This document shows positions 279 to 46,728 of a stretch of DNA of 64,000 nt, in pieces. A model generated the notes under the pieces. The model was given only the letters and a program-made list of their open reading frames with translations, searched no databases and was not told the DNA's origin. Numbering within the stretch: the stretch's first letter is position 1; each line of letters starts with the position of its first letter. Made by a program: the position numbers and the translations under genes. The stretch comes from Acidimicrobiia bacterium (GTDB taxonomy: Bacteria; Actinomycetota; Acidimicrobiia; Spongiisociales; UBA11373): assembly GCA_040902765.1 (NCBI GenBank), contig JBBDWO010000028.1, forward strand, positions 43,946 to 107,945, in the 5' to 3' direction.

Positions 279-1544
279 GTGTTCGTAGACGAGGTGGTGG
301 TCCACCTACGCGCCGGTGACGGCGGTGCCGGTGTGGTCTCATTCGAGAAGATCAAGGGTCGGCCGCGGGGCAGACCGCTCGGTGGCTCGGGTGGCCGAGG
401 CGGCGACGTGATCATCGAGGCCTCGACCGCCATGTCGACGCTGCTCGACTACATGCGCCGGCCCCATCGCCGAGCGGGCTCAGGTACCCATGGCAGCGGC
501 GACCTCCAGAGCGGGAAGTCCGGCGACGATCTCGTCCTTCCGGTGCCGCCGGGGACGGTGGTGAAGGACATCGCGGGGACCGTGCTCGCCGATCTGGCCA
601 GACCCGGGCAAAGGGTGACGGTGCTCACCGGAGGCCGCGGCGGCAAGGGCAACCAAGCGCTCTCCGGGCGTCGGCATCTCGCACCTGCGTTCGCCGAGCA
701 AGGCGAGTACGGGGCCAGTGCCGACGTGATCCTCGAACTCAAGCTGATCGCCGACGCTGCCCTGGTGGGGTTCCCCAACGCCGGGAAGAGCACCCTCGTG
801 TCCGTGGTGTCGGCGGCCCGCCCCCGGATCGCCGACTACCCGTTCACGACTCTGGAACCGAACCTCGGCGTCGTCGACGTCGATGGGCGTCAGTTCGTCC
901 TTGCGGACGTTCCCGGGCTCATCGAAGGGGCGGCAGAGGGTCGTGGGCTCGGCCACTCGTTCCTGAGGCACGTGGAGCGAGCGCGGGTTCTGGTGATCCT
1001 GCTCGATCCCTCGCCACTTCAGGAGGCGTCGTGCGAGCAGCAGCTGGTGGTCCTTCTCTCGGAGCTGGAGGCACACGATCCGGCCCTGGCCGCCCGGGAG
1101 CGTGTGGTGGCGGTCACCAAGGCCGACCTGAGTGAGGCCGCGGAGGCTCATGAGCGGCTGGGTGGGAGTGATGCGGGCATCCATCTCGTGTCCGCGGCCA
1201 CCGGTGCCGGGGTCGAGGAGCTGATGCACCGGGTAGCCGATGCCGTGGCGCGGGTCGAAGCCGACCTGCCCGACGGGGAGGGCTACATCCTGCACCGGCC
1301 CGTGATGCCGGCGTTCGACGTCCACCACGACGGCGAGCGGTGGGTGGTGACCGGCCTCGCCGCCGAGCGCGCGGTGGCCTTCGACGATCTGACCGTGCCC
1401 GGAGCCGCCGAGGCGGCGGCGAGGCGGCTGCGCTCGGCGGGCATCGACGCCGTTCTCCGGTCCCAGGGCGCCGTCGACGGCGACGAGGTGCGCATCGGCG
1501 AAGTGATCTTCGAGTTCACTGAAGAAGAGGCGAGTAGCGAGTAG
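279..1544 (+). CDS. obg: GTPase Obg/CgtA
   Basis: GTG start with GGAGG RBS; Obg-fold N-terminus (Gly-rich), G1 motif GFPNAGKST and G3 DVPGLIEGA; C-terminal extension typical of actinobacteria; the stop codon lies in the first unit of a heptamer array. Confidence 0.9.
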   Translation: MFVDEVVVHLRAGDGGAGVVSFEKIKGRPRGRPLGGSGGRGGDVIIEASTAMSTLLDYMRRPHRRAGSGTHGSGDLQSGKSGDDLVLPVPPGTVVKDIAGTVLADLARPGQRVTVLTGGRGGKGNQALSGRRHLAPAFAEQGEYGASADVILELKLIADAALVGFPNAGKSTLVSVVSAARPRIADYPFTTLEPNLGVVDVDGRQFVLADVPGLIEGAAEGRGLGHSFLRHVERARVLVILLDPSPLQEASCEQQLVVLLSELEAHDPALAARERVVAVTKADLSEAAEAHERLGGSDAGIHLVSAATGAGVEELMHRVADAVARVEADLPDGEGYILHRPVMPAFDVHHDGERWVVTGLAAERAVAFDDLTVPGAAEAAARRLRSAGIDAVLRSQGAVDGDEVRIGEVIFEFTEEEASSE

Positions 1545-1606
1545 CGAGTACCAAGTACCAAGTACCGAATACCAAGTACCAAGTACGGCTGTTGGCTGTT
1601 GGCCAC
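1530..1606. repeat. Tandem heptanucleotide array: (GCGAGTA)x3 (CCAAGTA)x2 CCGAATA (CCAAGTA)x2 CGGCTGT (TGGCTGT) TGGCCAC
   Basis: Read directly from the sequence; 11 contiguous 7-nt units starting inside the obg stop codon. Confidence 0.75.
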
Positions 1607-42167: not shown

Positions 42168-42249
42168 GGAGGGGCCAGGAGCGAGGGGCGAGGAGCCGCC
42201 TGCTCTGCTGTCCGGTGCCTGCTCCCTCGTCCCTCGTCCCTCATCCCTT
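42167..42249. terminator. Inverted heptamer-repeat hairpin (GCGAGGGGCGAGGA ... TCCCTCGTCCCTCG) between the cupredoxin gene and recO
   Basis: Forward GAGGGGC-type units followed by their reverse complements (CCCTCGT)x2; predicts a long GC hairpin. Confidence 0.6.
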
Positions 42250-42267: not shown

Positions 42268-42984
42268 ATGGGCCTCCGTTCCGACCAGGGGATCGTGCTG
42301 CGCGGATATCCGTTCGGTGAGGCCGATCGGGTCGTCGTGATCGCCAGCCCCAATTCGGGCAAGGTTCGGGCCGTGGCGAAGGGGGTCCGTAAGACGAAGA
42401 GTCGGTTCGGCGGGCGCCTCGAGCCGTTTACCCACGTCGATCTGGTCCTCTATGAGGGTCGCAACCTGGACACGATCACCCAGGTCTCGGTGATCGAAGG
42501 ATTCCCTGCCCTTCGAGCCGACCTGGAGCGCGTGCTGGCGGCGGGCACCATGGTCGAAGCGATCGATGCGGTGATCCAGGAGAAGGAGTCTGCGTTGCGG
42601 GCGTTTCTCCTCCTGCAACGCGGGCTGCGGGCGCTCGAGGCCGGCCCACGGCACCCCGACCTGGTGGCGTCGTTCCTCCTCAAAGTTGCCGACGTGGTCG
42701 GCGTGGCGCCATCGTTCGATCGATGCGCCGGGTGCGGTCGGCCGGATCGTCTCTCCCGGTTCTCGTTCGCCGGTGGCGGCATCCTGTGCGAGGACGAGGC
42801 CGCAGAGGGCGCGGTGCCGCTGCGGGCCGGGCTCACCGCCTACCTGCAACGGATCGCTTCGGCCGATCTGGCCGATCTGCCCGAGGCCGACCCCGGGTTC
42901 GTCGGCGAGGCGATGGGAGTGACCAGGCGCTTCCTGGAGTACCACCTGGATCGCCGGCTCACCTCTCTCAGTGTCGATGTCTGA
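42268..42984 (+). CDS. recO: DNA repair protein RecO
   Basis: N-terminal OB fold and C-terminal Cys4 zinc site (CAGCG...C). Confidence 0.85.
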   Translation: MGLRSDQGIVLRGYPFGEADRVVVIASPNSGKVRAVAKGVRKTKSRFGGRLEPFTHVDLVLYEGRNLDTITQVSVIEGFPALRADLERVLAAGTMVEAIDAVIQEKESALRAFLLLQRGLRALEAGPRHPDLVASFLLKVADVVGVAPSFDRCAGCGRPDRLSRFSFAGGGILCEDEAAEGAVPLRAGLTAYLQRIASADLADLPEADPGFVGEAMGVTRRFLEYHLDRRLTSLSVDV

Positions 42985-43690
42985 TCCTCGCCACGTCGCC
43001 ATCGTGATGGATGGCAACGGCCGCTGGGCGGAGGCGCGTGGGCTACCGAGGACAGCGGGACACGCCGCCGGAGAGGAGGCGCTGTTCGAAGTGGTCCACG
43101 GTGCGCTCGGGCTCGGCATCGAGTGGCTCACCGTGTTCACGTTCTCCACGGAGAACTGGTCCCGCCCTGACGACGAAGTGGCCTTCCTCATGGGCTTCAA
43201 GGAGAATCTCCTGACTCGACGCCGAGACGAGCTGCACGAACTCGGCATACGGGTGCGCTTCCTCGGAGACCGGAACGACCCGCGCGTGGGTGATCGCCTC
43301 CGGGAGAACATCGCGGCCGCCGAGACGCTGACCGCCGGCAACACGGCGATGACCATGGTGTTCGCCTTCAACCACGGTGGTCGTGCGGAGATCGTCGAAG
43401 CGGCTCGCCGCCTCTCGGTCGATGTGGCCGAGGGGAAGCTCGCCGCCGAGGAGATCGACGAGGCAGCCCTGCTCGCTCGTTTCGAGATCCCGGAGATGCC
43501 CGATCCGGACCTCGTGATCCGCACCAGCGGGGAGCATCGCCTCAGCAACTTCCTCCTGTGGCAGGCCGCCTACAGCGAGCTGGTGTTCACCCCGACGCTG
43601 TGGCCCGACTTCCGAACCGAGCATCTCGTCGCCTGCGTGGAGGAGTACCGACGCCGGGACCGCCGATTCGGCAAGGTCACCGACGGCTAA
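42971..43690 (+). CDS. uppS: Isoprenyl transferase (undecaprenyl diphosphate synthase)
   Basis: HVAIVMDGNGRWA substrate-binding motif. Confidence 0.85.
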   Translation: MSMSDPRHVAIVMDGNGRWAEARGLPRTAGHAAGEEALFEVVHGALGLGIEWLTVFTFSTENWSRPDDEVAFLMGFKENLLTRRRDELHELGIRVRFLGDRNDPRVGDRLRENIAAAETLTAGNTAMTMVFAFNHGGRAEIVEAARRLSVDVAEGKLAAEEIDEAALLARFEIPEMPDPDLVIRTSGEHRLSNFLLWQAAYSELVFTPTLWPDFRTEHLVACVEEYRRRDRRFGKVTDG

Positions 43691-43711
43691 CCAGCTGACG
43701 ACAGGAACTCT

Positions 43712-43845
43712 CTCCCCCCGTAGGGGGGAGTCCCGTAGGGAGCGCAGCGACCGGAGGGGAGGGGGGAGGGCGAACGCTACGTGGGCCTCGCGACGGGTCT
43801 GGCCTCCCCCTCCGTCATCGGCCTTCGGCCGCTGCCACCTCCCCT
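43712..43845. repeat. 134-bp GC-rich repeat unit (copy A), begins with hairpin CTCCCCCC-GTA-GGGGGGAG
   Basis: Near-identical to copy B at 45159-45292; the two differ only in the loop and at one other base. Confidence 0.8.
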
Positions 43846-45158
43846 CAGTGTCATAGTTGGGGGGTGTCTGGTGGGTCTGGCTCTCCACCTCCCTGCCCTC
43901 TCGTTGTGGGTTGTGGCTTTCGTAGGTTGTGCCGGCCCACCGGACGCGCCGAACCGGCAGGCGAGGCTTGATAGGAGCTTGGCTTCCCGCCTCAACTGAG
44001 GCTTGCCCACCGGCCGGTTCTGGCGGTCATCCCTACTGAAAGGAGACGGGATCATGGTGGTCATCGGAATCGACGCGCACAAGCGCACCCATACGGCAGT
44101 GGCAGTGGATCACAACGGGGTTGAGCTTGGAACCAAGACGGTGGCGGCTAACTCGGTGGGGCATCTGGAGCTGGTGCGTTGGGCTCGCAGGTGGGGTGAA
44201 CAGGTTCGGTTCGGGGCAGAGGACTGCCGTCATGTCACTCGACGGCTCGAAGCTGACTTGGTGCGTGCCGACGCGCAGGTGGTTCGGGTTCCTCCCAAGC
44301 TGATGGCCGGGACTAGGCGTAGCGTCAGGGCACGAGGCAAGTCGGATCCCATCGACGCGCTCGCGGTGGCCCGGGCGGTGCTGCGCGAACCGGGGCTGCC
44401 GGTAGCACGGTTGGATCAAGACGAGTTAGAGATCCGTCTGCTCGTCGATCACCGCGAAGACCTTGTGGCGCAACGCACCGCGATCATCAACCGGCTGCGT
44501 TGGCACCTCTACGACCTGGACCCGACCCTCGAGGACACCTGCAAGAACCTGACGTCGCTGCGGGCCCTCGACACGGTCGCCCAAGCCCTCACGACTATGA
44601 GTGGGGTGAGAGCCGAGATCGCCTCCGACCTCGTTGCCCGATGCCAGGAACTCACCGCGGCCGGAACGGCCCTCGAAAAGCAGATCACCACCCGGATCAA
44701 ACCGCTGGCACCATCCCTGCTGGCCCTGCATGGCTGCGGGCCACTCACCGCAGCCAAGATCGTCGCAGAGACAGCCTCGGTAACCCGGTTCCGGGACCGC
44801 AACGCCTACGCCCGCCACAACGGCACCGCCCCAATACCCGTGTGGTCAGGCAACACCAACCACCATCGACTCAACCGAGGCGGCAACCGGCAACTCAACG
44901 CCGCGTTGCATCGCATCGCCATCACCCAACTCCGAACCCCCGGACCCGCACGAGACCTCATCGAACGCGTCACCGCCTCAGGCAAAACCAAACGAGACGC
45001 CCTACGAATCCTGCGACGCCGACTATCCGACGTCGTCTACAAAAGCCTCCTCACCGACCATCACGCCCACCACGCTATAACCAGCCTCGCCGAAGCCGCT
45101 TGACATAGGAGCAACCTGCGGGGGAGGGGACCGCGTGATGGGGTTTTTTTTGCGGTTC
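43846..45158 (+). mobile_element. IS110-family insertion sequence (about 1.3 kb), boundaries approximate
   Basis: Single DEDD transposase ORF; about 200 bp of 5' non-coding end; bounded by the two 134-bp repeats; inserted in the conserved uppS-glyS interval. Confidence 0.7.
44054..45103 (+). CDS. IS110-family transposase (DEDD_Tnp_IS110 plus Transposase_20)
   Basis: MVVIGIDAHKRTH N-terminus with catalytic Asp; C-terminal HhH GVGPLTAAKIVAE...RFRD; RBS AAAGGAGACGGG. Confidence 0.85.
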   Translation: MVVIGIDAHKRTHTAVAVDHNGVELGTKTVAANSVGHLELVRWARRWGEQVRFGAEDCRHVTRRLEADLVRADAQVVRVPPKLMAGTRRSVRARGKSDPIDALAVARAVLREPGLPVARLDQDELEIRLLVDHREDLVAQRTAIINRLRWHLYDLDPTLEDTCKNLTSLRALDTVAQALTTMSGVRAEIASDLVARCQELTAAGTALEKQITTRIKPLAPSLLALHGCGPLTAAKIVAETASVTRFRDRNAYARHNGTAPIPVWSGNTNHHRLNRGGNRQLNAALHRIAITQLRTPGPARDLIERVTASGKTKRDALRILRRRLSDVVYKSLLTDHHAHHAITSLAEAA

Positions 45159-45292
45159 CTCCCCCCGAAGGGGGGAGTCCCGTAGGGAGCGCAGCGACCG
45201 GAGGGGAGGGGGGAGGGCGAACGCTACGTGGGCCTCGCGACGGGTCTGGCCTCCCCCTCCGTCAGCGGCCTTCGGCCGCTGCCACCTCCCCC
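45159..45292. repeat. 134-bp GC-rich repeat unit (copy B) with terminal hairpins CTCCCCCC-GAA-GGGGGGAG and CTCCCCC-TTC-GGGGGAG
   Basis: Direct repeat of 43712-43845. Confidence 0.8.
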
Positions 45293-45417
45293 TTCGGGGG
45301 AGCAAAGTCAGAACGGGTCGCCCCCCATCCGCGCGCCCCCAAGTACCAGGTACTCTGGGCCTCTCGGCCCGAGACGACTAGCCCCTGCCGTACGCCACCG
45401 GTTTATCCTCCGCACCC

Positions 45418-46728
45418 ATGCCTGCCCCGTCCCTCGAGACCATCGTCAACCTGTCGAAGCGCCGTGGCTTCGTCTTCCCGTCGTCGGAGATCTACGGCGG
45501 TCTTCGCTCGGCCTGGGACTACGGCCCGCTCGGGGCCGAGCTGCTGCGCAATATCCGCGACGCCTGGTGGACCACGATGGTGCGTGACCGCGACGACGTC
45601 GTCGGCCTCGATTCGGCGATCCTGCAGAGTCGACAGGTGTGGGTGGCTTCGGGCCACGAGGCGTCGTTCACCGACCCCCTCGTCGAGTGCACGTCATGCA
45701 ATCACCGGTTTCGGCTCGACAAGCTGGAGGAGCCGGACCTTTGCCCCAACTGCGGCACCCGTGGCGCCTTCACCGAGCCCCGTGCCTTTCACTTGATGCT
45801 CAAGACCTTCCTCGGTCCGGTGGAGGAGGACGCGGCGGTGGTGTACCTGCGCCCCGAGACCGCTCAGGGCATCTTCATCAACTACGAGAACGTGCGCCGA
45901 ACGGCGCGCCTGAGGCTCCCATTCGGGATCGCCCAGATCGGCAAGGCGTTCCGCAACGAGATCACCCCGGGGCAGTTCGTGTTTCGCACCCGGGAGTTCG
46001 AGCAGATGGAGATGGAGTACTTCTGCCGACCCGAGGAGTCCCAGCAGTGGCACGAGTACTGGCTGGAGGCCCGGATGCAGTGGTTCGTCGACCTGGGCAT
46101 GACCGCCGACAACCTGCGCCTGCGGGCCCACGACGACGACGAGTTGTCGCACTACTCCAGCGCCACCAGCGACCTCGAGTACCGGTTCCCGTGGGGATGG
46201 GACGAGCTGGAGGGCATCGCCCATCGCGGTGACTTCGACCTGCGCGCCCACAGCGAGCACAGCGGGGCCGACCTTCGGTACTACGACCAGGAGAACGACG
46301 AGCATTTCTTCCCGCATGTGATCGAGCCGGCGGTGGGCGTGACCCGCTCCGCTTTCGCCTTCCTCATGGATGCCTACGACGAGGACGAGGTGGGTGGGGA
46401 GGCCCGGGTAGTGCTGCGGCTGCACCGGCGGCTGGCCCCGATCAAAATCGCCATCTTGCCCCTCTCGAAGAAGGACGACCTCGTTGGGGTGACCTCACGC
46501 GTGGCATCCCTGCTGCGACGCCGGTGGGCGATCGAGGTGGATGTGACCCAGTCGATCGGCCGTCGGTACCGCCGGCAGGATGAGATCGGCACTCCGTACT
46601 GCGTCACCGTGGACTTCGACACCCTCGACGACGACGCGGTGACCATCCGCGACCGGGACACCACCGAGCAGGTGCGGATCCCGATCGATGGGCTGGTCGA
46701 TCACTTCACCACCGTGCTCGACGCCTGA
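45418..46728 (+). CDS. glyQS: Glycyl-tRNA synthetase (dimeric class II)
   Basis: Class II motifs and a zinc-binding insertion CTSCNHRF...CPNCG. Confidence 0.9.
   Translation: MPAPSLETIVNLSKRRGFVFPSSEIYGGLRSAWDYGPLGAELLRNIRDAWWTTMVRDRDDVVGLDSAILQSRQVWVASGHEASFTDPLVECTSCNHRFRLDKLEEPDLCPNCGTRGAFTEPRAFHLMLKTFLGPVEEDAAVVYLRPETAQGIFINYENVRRTARLRLPFGIAQIGKAFRNEITPGQFVFRTREFEQMEMEYFCRPEESQQWHEYWLEARMQWFVDLGMTADNLRLRAHDDDELSHYSSATSDLEYRFPWGWDELEGIAHRGDFDLRAHSEHSGADLRYYDQENDEHFFPHVIEPAVGVTRSAFAFLMDAYDEDEVGGEARVVLRLHRRLAPIKIAILPLSKKDDLVGVTSRVASLLRRRWAIEVDVTQSIGRRYRRQDEIGTPYCVTVDFDTLDDDAVTIRDRDTTEQVRIPIDGLVDHFTTVLDA

What the first reader, a model, noticed from the sequence alone, without database searches (positions are those of the whole stretch)
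43712..45292. IS110-family element bracketed by 134-bp near-identical repeats; candidate bridge-RNA region
IS110 elements normally make no target duplication. Here the DEDD transposase is flanked by two 134-bp direct repeats (43712-43845 and 45159-45292) bounded by C6/G6 hairpins. Copy A's terminal hairpin appears interrupted at about 43846, where the IS begins. This suggests the IS targets a hairpin-ended REP/MITE-like element present in tandem. IS110-group elements encode their bridge (guide) RNA in the 5' non-coding end, so 43846-44053 is a candidate ncRNA.
Basis: partly seen in the sequence, partly recalled or inferred. Interest (0 to 1): 0.6.

Follow-up and report, generated by a model that had tools for sequence, protein, structure and literature searches.

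The report
IS110 element inserted in repeat array
This is an ordinary but well-preserved IS110-family jumping gene whose guide ("bridge") RNA matches the spot where it landed, the end hairpin of one unit of a tandem intergenic repeat, so the flanking 134-bp repeats were there before the insertion and were not made by it.

Summary
Window 43712-43844 and 45159-45291 are 133-nt direct repeats with 2 mismatches, and they bracket a 349-aa IS110 transposase.

The repeats are not a target duplication. In another Acidimicrobiia MAG the same unit is dispersed over 9 contigs. It often sits there in tandem with a ~176-nt period and the same ~41-nt linker, and no IS is present. Removing the IS here restores a 175-nt period.

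The IS spans about 43846-45115, bounded by CT on both sides, with edges uncertain by about 2 nt. It interrupts the 3' hairpin of unit A.

The 208-nt left end folds, across 30 homologues, into two stems that each enclose an internal loop: 95% of cells are paired and 24 pairs show compensatory changes.

The loops match the flanks under the published IS621 rules:
- Left target guide CCACCUCCC equals the left flank, 9/9.
- Right target guide UCGUAGG pairs with the right flank, 7/7 (2 are G·U).
- The right donor guide pairs with the IS left end, 7/7.
- The left donor guide matches the IS right end, 8/9.

Guide-flank matching across the homologues beats every one of 5000 permutations.

This is a new member of a known kind, an IS110-group element that targets a multi-copy repeat. 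Interest is modest.

The parts
43712..43845 (+). Repeat unit A, first unit of a two-unit tandem array. Its 3'-terminal hairpin is cut by the IS. The last bases, CCACCTCCC(CT), form the left half of the target.
   Evidence: 133 nt, 98.5% identical to unit B. (86-96% identical copies in MAG SMAG_U14414).
43835..43843 (+). Left target (LT), CCACCTCCC. It is identical to the left target guide of the bridge RNA.
   Evidence: 9/9 identity in the family register. Across 23 distinct locus pairs the mean is 5.87/9 against 3.56 when permuted (0/5000 permutations reach it).
43844..43845 (+). CT at the left junction, the candidate core dinucleotide. The crossover cannot be placed more precisely than within 43842-43845.
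   Evidence: CCT is shared at both junctions (43843-43845 and 45115-45117).
43846..45115 (+). IS110-group insertion sequence, 1270 bp between the two CT dinucleotides. It has no terminal inverted repeats. The left non-coding end is 208 nt; the right end is 12 nt past the stop codon.
   Evidence: homologues are conserved from CAGTGTCA through to GACATAGGAG+4 nt, and their flanks are unrelated; the Logan contig spans both ends.
43866..44018 (+). Bridge RNA core: the target-binding loop module (43866-43946) and the donor-binding loop module (43953-44018).
   Evidence: 35 consensus pairs, 95.2% paired, 24 pairs with changes on both sides, 0/500 shuffles reach this; a profile built without the window hits 43869-44021, E = 5.4e-28.
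43885..43893 (+). Left target guide (LTG), CCACCUCCC, on the 5' side of the first internal loop.
43920..43929 (+). Right target guide UCGUAGG (43920-43926), followed by the handshake bases UUG. The stretch is contiguously complementary to the right junction CAACCTGCGG (45112-45121).
   Evidence: 7/7 pairs (5 Watson-Crick and 2 G·U). Family mean is 5.0/7 against 2.87 when permuted (0/5000). The handshake concept comes from PMC11208158.
43970..43978 (+). Left donor guide (LDG), GAUAGGAGC. It has the same sense as the right-end sequence CATAGGAGC (45104-45112).
   Evidence: 8/9 identity. Three kinds of matched substitutions between the guide and the right end occur in homologues (L009; L019, L060 and L064; L029).
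43995..44001 (+). Right donor guide (RDG), ACUGAGG. It is the reverse complement of CCTCAGT at the left junction (43843-43849).
   Evidence: 7/7. Four kinds of compensatory change between the guide and the left end occur in homologues.
44054..45103 (+). IS110 transposase/recombinase gene, 349 aa. [quoted passage not shown]
   Evidence: D7, E56, D98, D101 and S265 are invariant in 33 homologues.
45100..45105 (+). TTGACA in the right end, overlapping the stop codon. It is an outward-facing -35 box. In the excised circle it would lie 18 nt upstream of CATAGT (43852-43857).
   Evidence: reconstructed junction. TTGACATAGGAG is conserved in nearly all homologues. The junction-promoter concept comes from PMC11208160. 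Function is inferred.
45116..45117 (+). CT at the right junction, the second copy of the candidate core.
45118..45158 (+). The rest of unit A's 3' hairpin (GCGGGGGAGG) and the inter-unit linker GGACCGCGTGATGGGGTTTTTTTTGCGGTTCC.
   Evidence: the linker is conserved at 86-90% between tandem units in L088 and L091.
45159..45310 (+). Repeat unit B, with its intact 3' hairpin (45286-45302) and the array-end tail CAAAGTCA.
45339..45352 (+). Two heptamers, CCAAGTA CCAGGTA. This is the same motif that flanks the repeat units as longer arrays in the related genome.

Best explanation
A single copy of an IS110-group insertion sequence (about 1.27 kb) has integrated into the 3'-terminal hairpin of the first unit of a pre-existing two-unit tandem array. 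The array belongs to a dispersed intergenic repeat family and lies between uppS and the glycyl-tRNA synthetase gene.

The element works like IS621. Its 208-nt left end encodes a bridge RNA with two internal loops. The first loop carries a left target guide, CCACCUCCC (same sense as the top strand of the left target), and a right target guide, UCGUAGG (complementary to the right target). Together they specify the site CCACCTCCC-CT-GCGG in the repeat hairpin. The second loop carries guides for the element's own joined ends: GAUAGGAGC for the right end and ACUGAGG for CT+CAGT at the left end.

The DEDD/serine recombinase exchanges strands at a CT (or CC) core, so no long duplication is produced.

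Shown by computation: the anatomy, the structure covariation, the guide-flank covariation, and the pre-existence of the tandem array elsewhere. Inferred: transcription from a promoter rebuilt in the excised circle (TTGACA in the right end, CATAGT in the left end), the circular intermediate, and the chemistry.
For: - **Transposase family.**. There is distant but significant similarity to the solved IS621 and ISCro4 recombinases. The catalytic D/E/D/D/S positions are invariant in 33 homologues.
- **IS ends.** They are defined by conservation in 6-34 homologues whose flanks are unrelated to each other.
- **Left-end structure.** 35 pairs; 95.2% of cells paired against 34-47% when the partners are slid; 24 pairs with double-sided changes; 0/500 shuffles reach the observed values.
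- **Target guide rules**, taken from PMC11208160. The left target guide matches the left flank 9/9 here, and on average 5.87/9 against 3.56 permuted. The right target guide pairs with the right flank 7/7 here, and on average 5.0/7 against 2.87 permuted. Both beat all 5000 permutations.
- **Donor guides.** The right donor guide pairs with the left end 7/7, with 4 kinds of compensatory change in homologues. The left donor guide matches the right end 8/9, with 3 kinds of co-variation.
- **Handshake bases.** The bases 3' of the right target guide pair with the last bases of the right end, as described for IS621.
- **Independent profile.** A profile built without the window hits the window only at 43869-44021, E = 5e-28.
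- **The repeat array pre-dates the IS.** The same unit occurs on 9 contigs of MAG SMAG_U14414. It forms tandem pairs with a 176-nt period and the same linker, and no IS is present. Removing the IS from the window gives a 175-nt period.
- **Near-cognate sites in the family.** Variants of the hairpin that match the right target guide exactly (CCTACG in L082 and L091) or identically to this site (CCTGCG in L090) exist in that family.
Against: - Only one copy of this particular IS is known; the nearest relative is 72% identical at the protein level. Its target preference therefore rests on one insertion plus family-wide covariation.
- The right target guide needs two G·U pairs here.
- The crossover register is ambiguous. 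CCT is shared at both junctions. In several homologues the two bases next to the left and right junctions differ.
- The left donor guide's match ends 3 nt before the end of the right end, unlike IS621.
- The window sequence folded alone is not exceptional (z = -1.26).
- Rfam 15 has no matching family.
- Dispersal of the repeat was shown in a different genome. The source genome beyond the window could not be searched.
- No expression or activity data are available.
Confidence: 0.9

Rival explanations
1. The 134-bp direct repeats are a long target-site duplication, or another by-product created by the insertion event itself.
For: The repeats directly bracket the IS and are 98.5% identical. That is what a recent duplication would look like.
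Against: - The second copy does not begin at the IS end. It begins 41 nt further on, after the rest of unit A's hairpin and a linker.
- The same unit-linker-unit arrangement (176-nt period) exists without any IS in L091, L088 and L084.
- None of about 34 homologous IS copies has long flanking repeats.
- The IS110 mechanism exchanges strands at a 2-nt core (PMC11208158).
Confidence: 0.03
2. The 134-bp unit is part of the mobile element: the IS carries long terminal direct repeats, or the whole repeat-IS-repeat block moves as a unit.
For: The Logan contig L001 runs from inside one repeat to inside the other. In that sample, therefore, the IS is always seen with these flanks.
Against: - Sequence conservation among homologues stops at CAGTGTCA and at GGAG+4 nt, and no homologue carries the unit.
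- The unit occurs on 9 contigs of another genome with no IS nearby.
- The donor guides pair with the CAGTGTCA and GGAGCAAC ends, not with the ends of the repeat.
Confidence: 0.03
3. The left end is only a structured 5' untranslated leader or promoter region of the transposase gene. It is not a guide RNA, and the resemblance to the flanks is chance.
For: - The single-sequence fold is not significant.
- There is no Rfam hit.
- G/C-rich flanks make short matches easier to obtain.
Against: - The guide positions change together with the flanks across loci, and permutation of the locus pairing never reaches the observed match (0/5000).
- The loop positions that vary are exactly the unpaired sides of two internal loops framed by covarying stems.
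- The donor guides covary with the element's ends.
- This architecture was shown experimentally to act as a guide for IS621 (PMC11208160).
Confidence: 0.04
4. The arrangement is an assembly artefact: an IS contig was wrongly placed between two collapsed or duplicated repeat copies of a metagenome-assembled genome.
For: The source is a MAG. Repeats of this family break assemblies: many SMAG_U14414 contigs end inside them.
Against: - Both IS-repeat junctions are reproduced base for base in a separate Logan assembly.
- The split hairpin arms and the guide matches on both sides fit a real insertion.
- The two repeat copies differ at 2 positions and in their 3' hairpins.
- Caveat: the Logan run may be the same data set the MAG was built from, so this check is not fully independent.
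Confidence: 0.03

Closest known systems
IS621 (E. coli) and ISCro4: IS110-group elements with experimentally shown bridge RNAs
   Same: - A two-domain DEDD/serine recombinase.
- A long left end and a very short right end.
- A bridge RNA in the left end with target- and donor-binding internal loops.
- Left guides in the same sense as the top strand, right guides complementary to it.
- Handshake bases 3' of the right target guide.
- A CT at both junctions.
- A -35 box in the right end.
- A natural target that is a multi-copy extragenic repeat: REP for IS621 (PMC11208160).
   Different: - The protein is only remotely similar (E = 1e-6 to 6e-5, C-terminal domain only).
- The left target guide's 9-mer lies next to, rather than clearly over, the CT.
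- The left donor guide's match ends 3 nt before the end of the right end.
- In relatives, the base pair of bases next to the left junction often differs from that at the right junction.
- The target is a ~175-nt composite repeat rather than a 35-nt REP.
Actinobacterial IS110-group elements such as IS110, IS116, IS900, IS901 and IS902 (from my own knowledge of ISfinder and the literature; not tested here)
   Same: High-G+C hosts, similar size (1.3-1.5 kb), no inverted repeats, and site-specific insertion. Several homologues here have CATG in the right flank, which recalls the reported IS900/IS902 target consensus.
   Different: No sequence comparison with these named elements was possible with the tools available. 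The nearest database proteins are unnamed metagenome sequences of at most 72% identity.
REP / BIME / REPIN elements
   Same: Intergenic location, mostly just 3' of genes. G+C-rich hairpins. Multi-copy and prone to tandem clustering. Used as a landing site by IS110-family elements. GTAG motifs occur inside the unit.
   Different: The unit is about 135 nt (about 175 with the linker) and holds several hairpins, not one 20-40-nt palindrome. Only 2 copies occur in 64 kb of this genome. No RAYT transposase association was examined.
MITEs
   Same: Size of 130-180 nt, dispersed near-identical copies, and imperfect terminal inverted sequences (GCGGTyCC-TCCCCCC ... GGGGGAG-GGGACCGC).
   Different: No target-site duplication was seen and no parent transposon is known. 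Several copies are 5'-truncated and fused to other sequence, and tandem arrays share a fixed linker.
Cyanobacterial STRR heptanucleotide tandem repeats (from my own knowledge)
   Same: The window and the related MAG carry many intergenic arrays of 7-nt units, for example CCAAGTA, GAGTAGC, GAGGGGC and TTGCGAA.
   Different: A different phylum and different sequences. In the related MAG (L082, L087) the arrays flank the repeat units in inverted orientation. No function is known.

Membership tests
IS110 family, IS110 group (bridge-RNA-guided insertion sequences) | [quoted passage not shown] | tested here: met
   (4.8e-27 and 5.6e-17). (NF033542, 171 bits against a cut-off of 140). (D7, E56, D98, D101 and S265 invariant). 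(aligns with ISCro4 and IS621).
IS110 family, IS110 group (bridge-RNA-guided insertion sequences) | No terminal inverted repeats and no long target duplication; a short shared core at both junctions | tested here: met
   (no terminal inverted repeat). (CT/CCT at both junctions). The flanking 133-nt repeats are shown to be pre-existing units.
IS110 family, IS110 group (bridge-RNA-guided insertion sequences) | Left non-coding end much longer than the right end, holding the non-coding RNA | tested here: met
   The left end is 208 nt (43846-44053). The right end is 12 nt after the stop codon. The criterion comes from PMC11208160.
IS110 family, IS110 group (bridge-RNA-guided insertion sequences) | RNA with two internal loops, each framed by a stem and holding an inner hairpin, conserved by covariation | tested here: met
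   helices at alignment columns 71-86/146-161 and 174-188/231-244. 13 and 6 of their pairs have double-sided changes. 95.2% of cells are paired.
IS110 family, IS110 group (bridge-RNA-guided insertion sequences) | First loop matches the target: left guide in the sense of the top strand, right guide complementary to it | tested here: met
   9/9 and 7/7 (2 are G·U) in the window. Family-wide, 0/5000 permutations reach the observed means.
IS110 family, IS110 group (bridge-RNA-guided insertion sequences) | Second loop matches the joined ends of the element (the donor) | tested here: met
   right donor guide 7/7 and left donor guide 8/9, with compensatory changes in homologues. The register of the left donor guide differs from IS621 by 3 nt.
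IS110 family, IS110 group (bridge-RNA-guided insertion sequences) | Both target guides and both donor guides overlap one common core dinucleotide | tested here: inconclusive
   The right target guide and right donor guide both read CT here, but the left target guide reads CC at the corresponding positions. Three reconstructions of the empty site remain possible.
IS110 family, IS110 group (bridge-RNA-guided insertion sequences) | Excised circle that rebuilds a promoter across the right-end/left-end junction and expresses the RNA | not testable with these tools
   Sequence only: TTGACA, an 18-nt spacer, then CATAGT in the reconstructed junction. There are no reads or expression data.
Rfam-curated RNA family | Match to any Rfam 15 covariance model | tested here: not met
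   the only hit is a spurious one, at E = 0.67, in 43000-46000.
REP / REPIN elements | Short (about 20-40 nt) imperfect palindrome with a GTAG head, hundreds of copies per genome, and a cognate RAYT transposase | tested here: not met
   The unit is 135-175 nt with several hairpins. Only 2 copies occur in 64 kb. RAYT association was not examined.
MITE | Terminal inverted repeats plus target-site duplications at each copy | tested here: inconclusive
   Imperfect inverted ends are visible. No duplication was seen at single-unit loci (L082, L087, L090). Several copies are 5'-truncated.

The most novel reading that the evidence does not exclude
The ~175-nt hairpin-rich unit may be more than a passive REP-like repeat. 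It has fixed array ends (ACTCTC ... GAAAGTCA), a conserved linker with a T-run, and, in the related genome, inverted arrays of CCAAGTA heptamers on either side. It could be a new kind of non-autonomous mobile element, or a multi-copy small-RNA or terminator module of Acidimicrobiia, that this IS has evolved to use as a safe landing pad. Separately, the unequal dinucleotides at the left and right junctions in this clade could reflect a variant strand-exchange register, or integration through the top strand only.
Probability: 0.15. Interest if true: 0.5.

Novelty: new member of a known kind. Interest (0 to 1): 0.3.

Why it matters
It gives a clean natural example, from a poorly studied actinobacterial class, of a bridge-RNA element whose four guides can be read off against its own insertion site. 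It adds a covarying alignment of about 30 related bridge RNAs, and the guide registers in that alignment differ slightly from IS621. That is useful to people cataloguing programmable recombinases. It also shows that this clade picks multi-copy DNA as its landing site: here an intergenic repeat, and in a sister subgroup the orfA gene of IS3-family elements. This fits the known habit of the family. It does not change the current understanding of the family.

Tried and rejected
- **Rfam.** A scan of 43000-46000 at E <= 1 found nothing relevant.
- **Empty allele by exact-protein look-up.** I tried UppS with two start codons and GlyRS. None is on record, so no IS-free allele of this locus was obtained.
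- **Exact look-up of the transposase.** It returned only a 1358-bp Logan contig. No second copy of this IS is available for comparing flanks.
- **L082 as the orthologous locus.** I first read L082 as the uppS-glyS locus of the related genome. The alignment showed that only the repeat and a few adjacent bases match; the flanks are heptamer arrays and other genes.
- **Core register.** I first placed the core as CT, then as CC with the IS at 43844-45114, and also considered a 'CA' core inside GGAG|CA. The last was dropped once the complementarity of those bases to the bridge RNA was explained by the handshake bases 3' of the right target guide. CT against CC could not be settled.
- **RNA-level conservation of the repeat unit.** Only one compensatory change was seen (L088_1, GCGACC/GGTCGC). 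That is too little to tell RNA selection from DNA selection.
- **Covariance model.** I did not build one. The covariation counts and a leave-one-out nhmmer profile already answered the question.
Full report
**1. The observation**

The region contains one pair of direct repeats, 43712-43844 and 45159-45291. They are 133 nt long, differ at 2 positions, and start 1447 nt apart. Each copy opens with the hairpin TCCCCCC-GNA-GGGGGGA. Copy B closes with CTCCCCC-TTC-GGGGGAG at 45286-45302. In copy A the matching 5' arm (..CCTCCCC, ending about 43844) is separated from its 3' arm (GGGGAGG, 45121-45127) by 1.27 kb.

Between the repeats lies a 349-aa ORF (44054-45103, +). It hits PF01548 and PF02371 and NCBIfam NF033542, 'IS110 family RNA-guided transposase' (171 bits, cut-off 140). 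The neighbours are uppS (42971-43690) and a class II glycyl-tRNA synthetase gene (45418-46728), both on the + strand. Nothing else in the 64-kb window resembles the repeat or the IS.

The database copy of the transposase is annotated as coming from an Acidimicrobiia MAG. A 1358-bp Logan contig (L001) is identical to window 43820-45177. It breaks inside the repeats and not at the IS ends, so both junctions are reproduced and the IS has a single context in that sample.

**2. Ends of the IS**

The transposase has thousands of homologues. The nearest is 72% identical, and most lie on 1-2-kb contigs. I fetched 80 metagenome loci.

In the six closest loci (67-70% protein identity) the DNA is alignable from CAGTGTCA (window 43846) to the transposase start codon. 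It is alignable again from the end of the gene through TTGACATAGGAG plus 4 nt (window 45100-45115). Outside these limits the sequences are unrelated. None of the 80 loci contains the 134-bp unit.

So the IS is about 43846-45115. It has a 208-nt left end, a 12-nt right end past the stop codon, and no terminal inverted repeats. CT lies on both sides (43844-43845 and 45116-45117), and CCT is in fact shared at both junctions. These are the hallmarks of the IS110 group as described in PMC11208160.

**3. The left end is a bridge RNA**

I aligned 30 left ends, the window plus 29 loci. The alignment gives a consensus of 35 base pairs in two long stems, each enclosing an internal loop with a small inner hairpin. 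On this structure:
- 95.2% of cells are standard pairs, against 34-47% when the partners are slid by 1-3 columns.
- 24 pairs show changes on both sides.
- None of 500 shuffles reaches any of the observed measures.

In window coordinates:

| Module | Feature | Coordinates | Sequence |
|---|---|---|---|
| First (target-binding) | Outer stem | 43866-43881 / 43931-43946 | |
| First | 5' loop side | 43885-43893 | CCACCUCCC |
| First | 3' loop side | 43920-43926, then UUG | UCGUAGG |
| Second (donor-binding) | Outer stem | 43953-43967 / 44005-44018 | |
| Second | 5' loop side | 43970-43978 | GAUAGGAGC |
| Second | 3' loop side | 43995-44001 | ACUGAGG |

A sequence profile built from the 29 other loci, leaving the window out, finds exactly one place in the window: 43869-44021 on the + strand, E = 5.4e-28. 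Rfam 15 has no family that matches. The window sequence folded alone is unremarkable (z = -1.26).

**4. The loops match the flanks by the published rules**

For IS621, the left guides have the sense of the top strand of the left target or left donor. [quoted passage not shown] Two bases 3' of the right guides, the handshake guides, pair with the partner DNA after strand exchange (PMC11208158).

In the window:
- The 5' side of loop 1 is identical to the 9 nt left of the junction (43835-43843), 9/9.
- The 3' side of loop 1 pairs with the right junction C-CT-GCGG (45115-45121), 7/7: 5 Watson-Crick pairs and 2 G·U pairs.
- The next bases, UUG, continue the pairing into the last bases of the right end (CAA), as handshake bases would (and direct reading).

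Across 23 distinct locus pairs, the left guide matches its own flank at 5.87 of 9 positions, against 3.56 ± 0.32 when flanks are permuted among loci. The right guide pairs at 5.0 of 7, against 2.87 ± 0.28. In both cases 0 of 5000 permutations reach the observed value.

On the donor side, the reverse complement of ACUGAGG is CCTCAGT, which is window 43843-43849 (7/7). Homologues whose left end starts CACTG, CAATG, GAGTG or CCCAGT carry the matching change in that loop. GAUAGGAGC follows the right-end sequence CATAGGAGC through three kinds of substitution.

This makes a complete set of four guides, each supported by covariation.

**5. Where exactly the crossover lies**

This point is not settled. 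In the clade, left junctions read [7 nt matched by the guide] + 2 nt + xT + CAGTGTCA. Right junctions read GGAG + 4 nt + 2 nt + right target.

The two 2-nt strings agree in L007, L047 and L058. They differ at one position in the window (CC against CT) and in L002, L005, L006 and L057.

For the window, three empty-site reconstructions are possible:
- ...CCACCTCCCCTGCGGGGGAGG. This gives a perfect 7-bp hairpin with a UGCG loop and is closest to the paralogous units.
- ...CCACCTCCCTGCGG. This has 12 nt identical to the RNA.
- ...CCACCTCCCGCGG.

I therefore give the IS edges with an uncertainty of about 2 nt. A preprint reports that IS110 integration can proceed mainly through the top strand (10.1101/2025.10.25.684509; abstract only). 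That might explain unequal junction dinucleotides, but this is speculation.

**6. What the 134-bp repeats are**

I scanned one genome per species for a 20-mer from the 3' part of the unit. It found 9 contigs of a single other genome, Acidimicrobiia MAG SMAG_U14414, plus two chance 21-nt hits. The source genome itself is not in that collection.

In that MAG the units are 86-96% identical to the window's. They lie in intergenic DNA, mostly just 3' of genes. They are often paired in tandem with a 176-nt period (L091; also L088 and L084). Between paired units is a linker, GGGGACCGCG..GGGGTyyTTTTTGCGGTyCC, that is 86-90% identical to window 45118-45158. No bridge-RNA-like sequence or IS occurs in these loci.

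Removing the IS and one CT from the window leaves a 175-nt period. So the two '134-bp repeats' are two neighbouring units of a tandem array that existed before the IS arrived. The IS sits in the 3' hairpin of the first unit.

All units share GCCACCTCCCC, a full match to the left guide. Their loops vary: TTCG, TACG, TGCG and others. TACG (L082, L091) is the exact complement of the right guide. TGCG (L090) is identical to the window's site. The whole family is therefore a set of cognate or near-cognate targets, much as REP elements are for IS621.

The 3' ~95 nt of the unit is the conserved part, and several copies are 5'-truncated. I could not assign the family to REP/REPIN or MITE by their defining features. 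It is best called an undescribed dispersed intergenic repeat.

**7. Mechanism, with the status of each step**

- **Shown by computation:** the element's anatomy, the RNA structure, the four guide-DNA matches, and the pre-existing array.
- **Inferred from the IS621 work:** the element excises as a circle. The right-end TTGACA (45100-45105, conserved in nearly all homologues) then comes to lie 18 nt upstream of CATAGT (43852-43857). Transcription would start near 43864, just before the first stem. The recombinase, loaded with this RNA, pairs loop 1 with the repeat hairpin and loop 2 with the circle junction, and exchanges strands at the CT/CC core.
- **Not testable here:** expression, circle formation and activity.

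**8. Verdict**

The repeat unit is longer than stated, about 175 nt with the linker. The array is not a product of the insertion. 'REP/MITE-like' is a description and not a classification. The element is a new member of a known kind, and the behaviour (an IS110-group element targeting a multi-copy repeat through its bridge RNA) is already known. Interest is modest.

Noticed in passing
L020, L027, L028, L031, L037, L038, L046, L060, L064, L074 (for example L037:224-521): A sister subgroup of the same IS110 clade is inserted inside IS3-family orfA genes. The insertion lies right after the codons for ..KKAAAFFA, next to the A AAA AAG frameshift site. The left flanks hit HTH_Tnp_1 (PF01527, E = 5e-12), and the left guide of these elements reads UUUCUUCGC. 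This is one IS targeting a conserved coding motif of another, multi-copy IS.
   Followed up: partly
window 1531-1586, 19845-19889, 27511-27574, 27579-27611, 42223-42248, 45339-45352; L082 2241-2338 and 2546-2573; L087 875-895 and 1094-1114; L091 377-404: There are many intergenic tandem arrays of 7-nt units (CCAAGTA, GAGTAGC, GAGGGGC, TTGCGAA and others), which recall cyanobacterial STRR repeats. In the related MAG, inverted arrays (TACTTGG)n ... (CCAAGTA)n flank the repeat units.
   Followed up: partly
L002 and L003, around position 2798: The IS and at least 90 nt of right flank are identical in these two loci, and so are the 10 nt immediately left of the IS (CCGTAACCTG). Further left the DNA is unrelated. 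This is either a chimeric assembly or a rearrangement next to the IS through a second target-like site.
   Followed up: partly
L045 824-870: The first 23 nt of the left end (CAGTGTCAGGGTGACAGTGCCGT) are duplicated in tandem.
   Followed up: no
window 45144-45151: A run of eight T lies in the linker between the two repeat units, inside otherwise very G+C-rich sequence. The corresponding linkers in the related MAG carry T4-T5. It could be a terminator-like feature of each unit.
   Followed up: no
left and right junctions of L002-L078: In this clade a T always precedes CAGTGTCA at the left junction. The corresponding position at the right junction is mostly C and follows the right target guide. 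The two junction dinucleotides are therefore often unequal, unlike the CT/CT of IS621.
   Followed up: partly
L085, L086, L089, L084, L091 (contig ends): Many SMAG_U14414 contigs end inside the repeat units. This suggests the family has more copies than the 9 contigs recovered, and that it fragments short-read assemblies.
   Followed up: no
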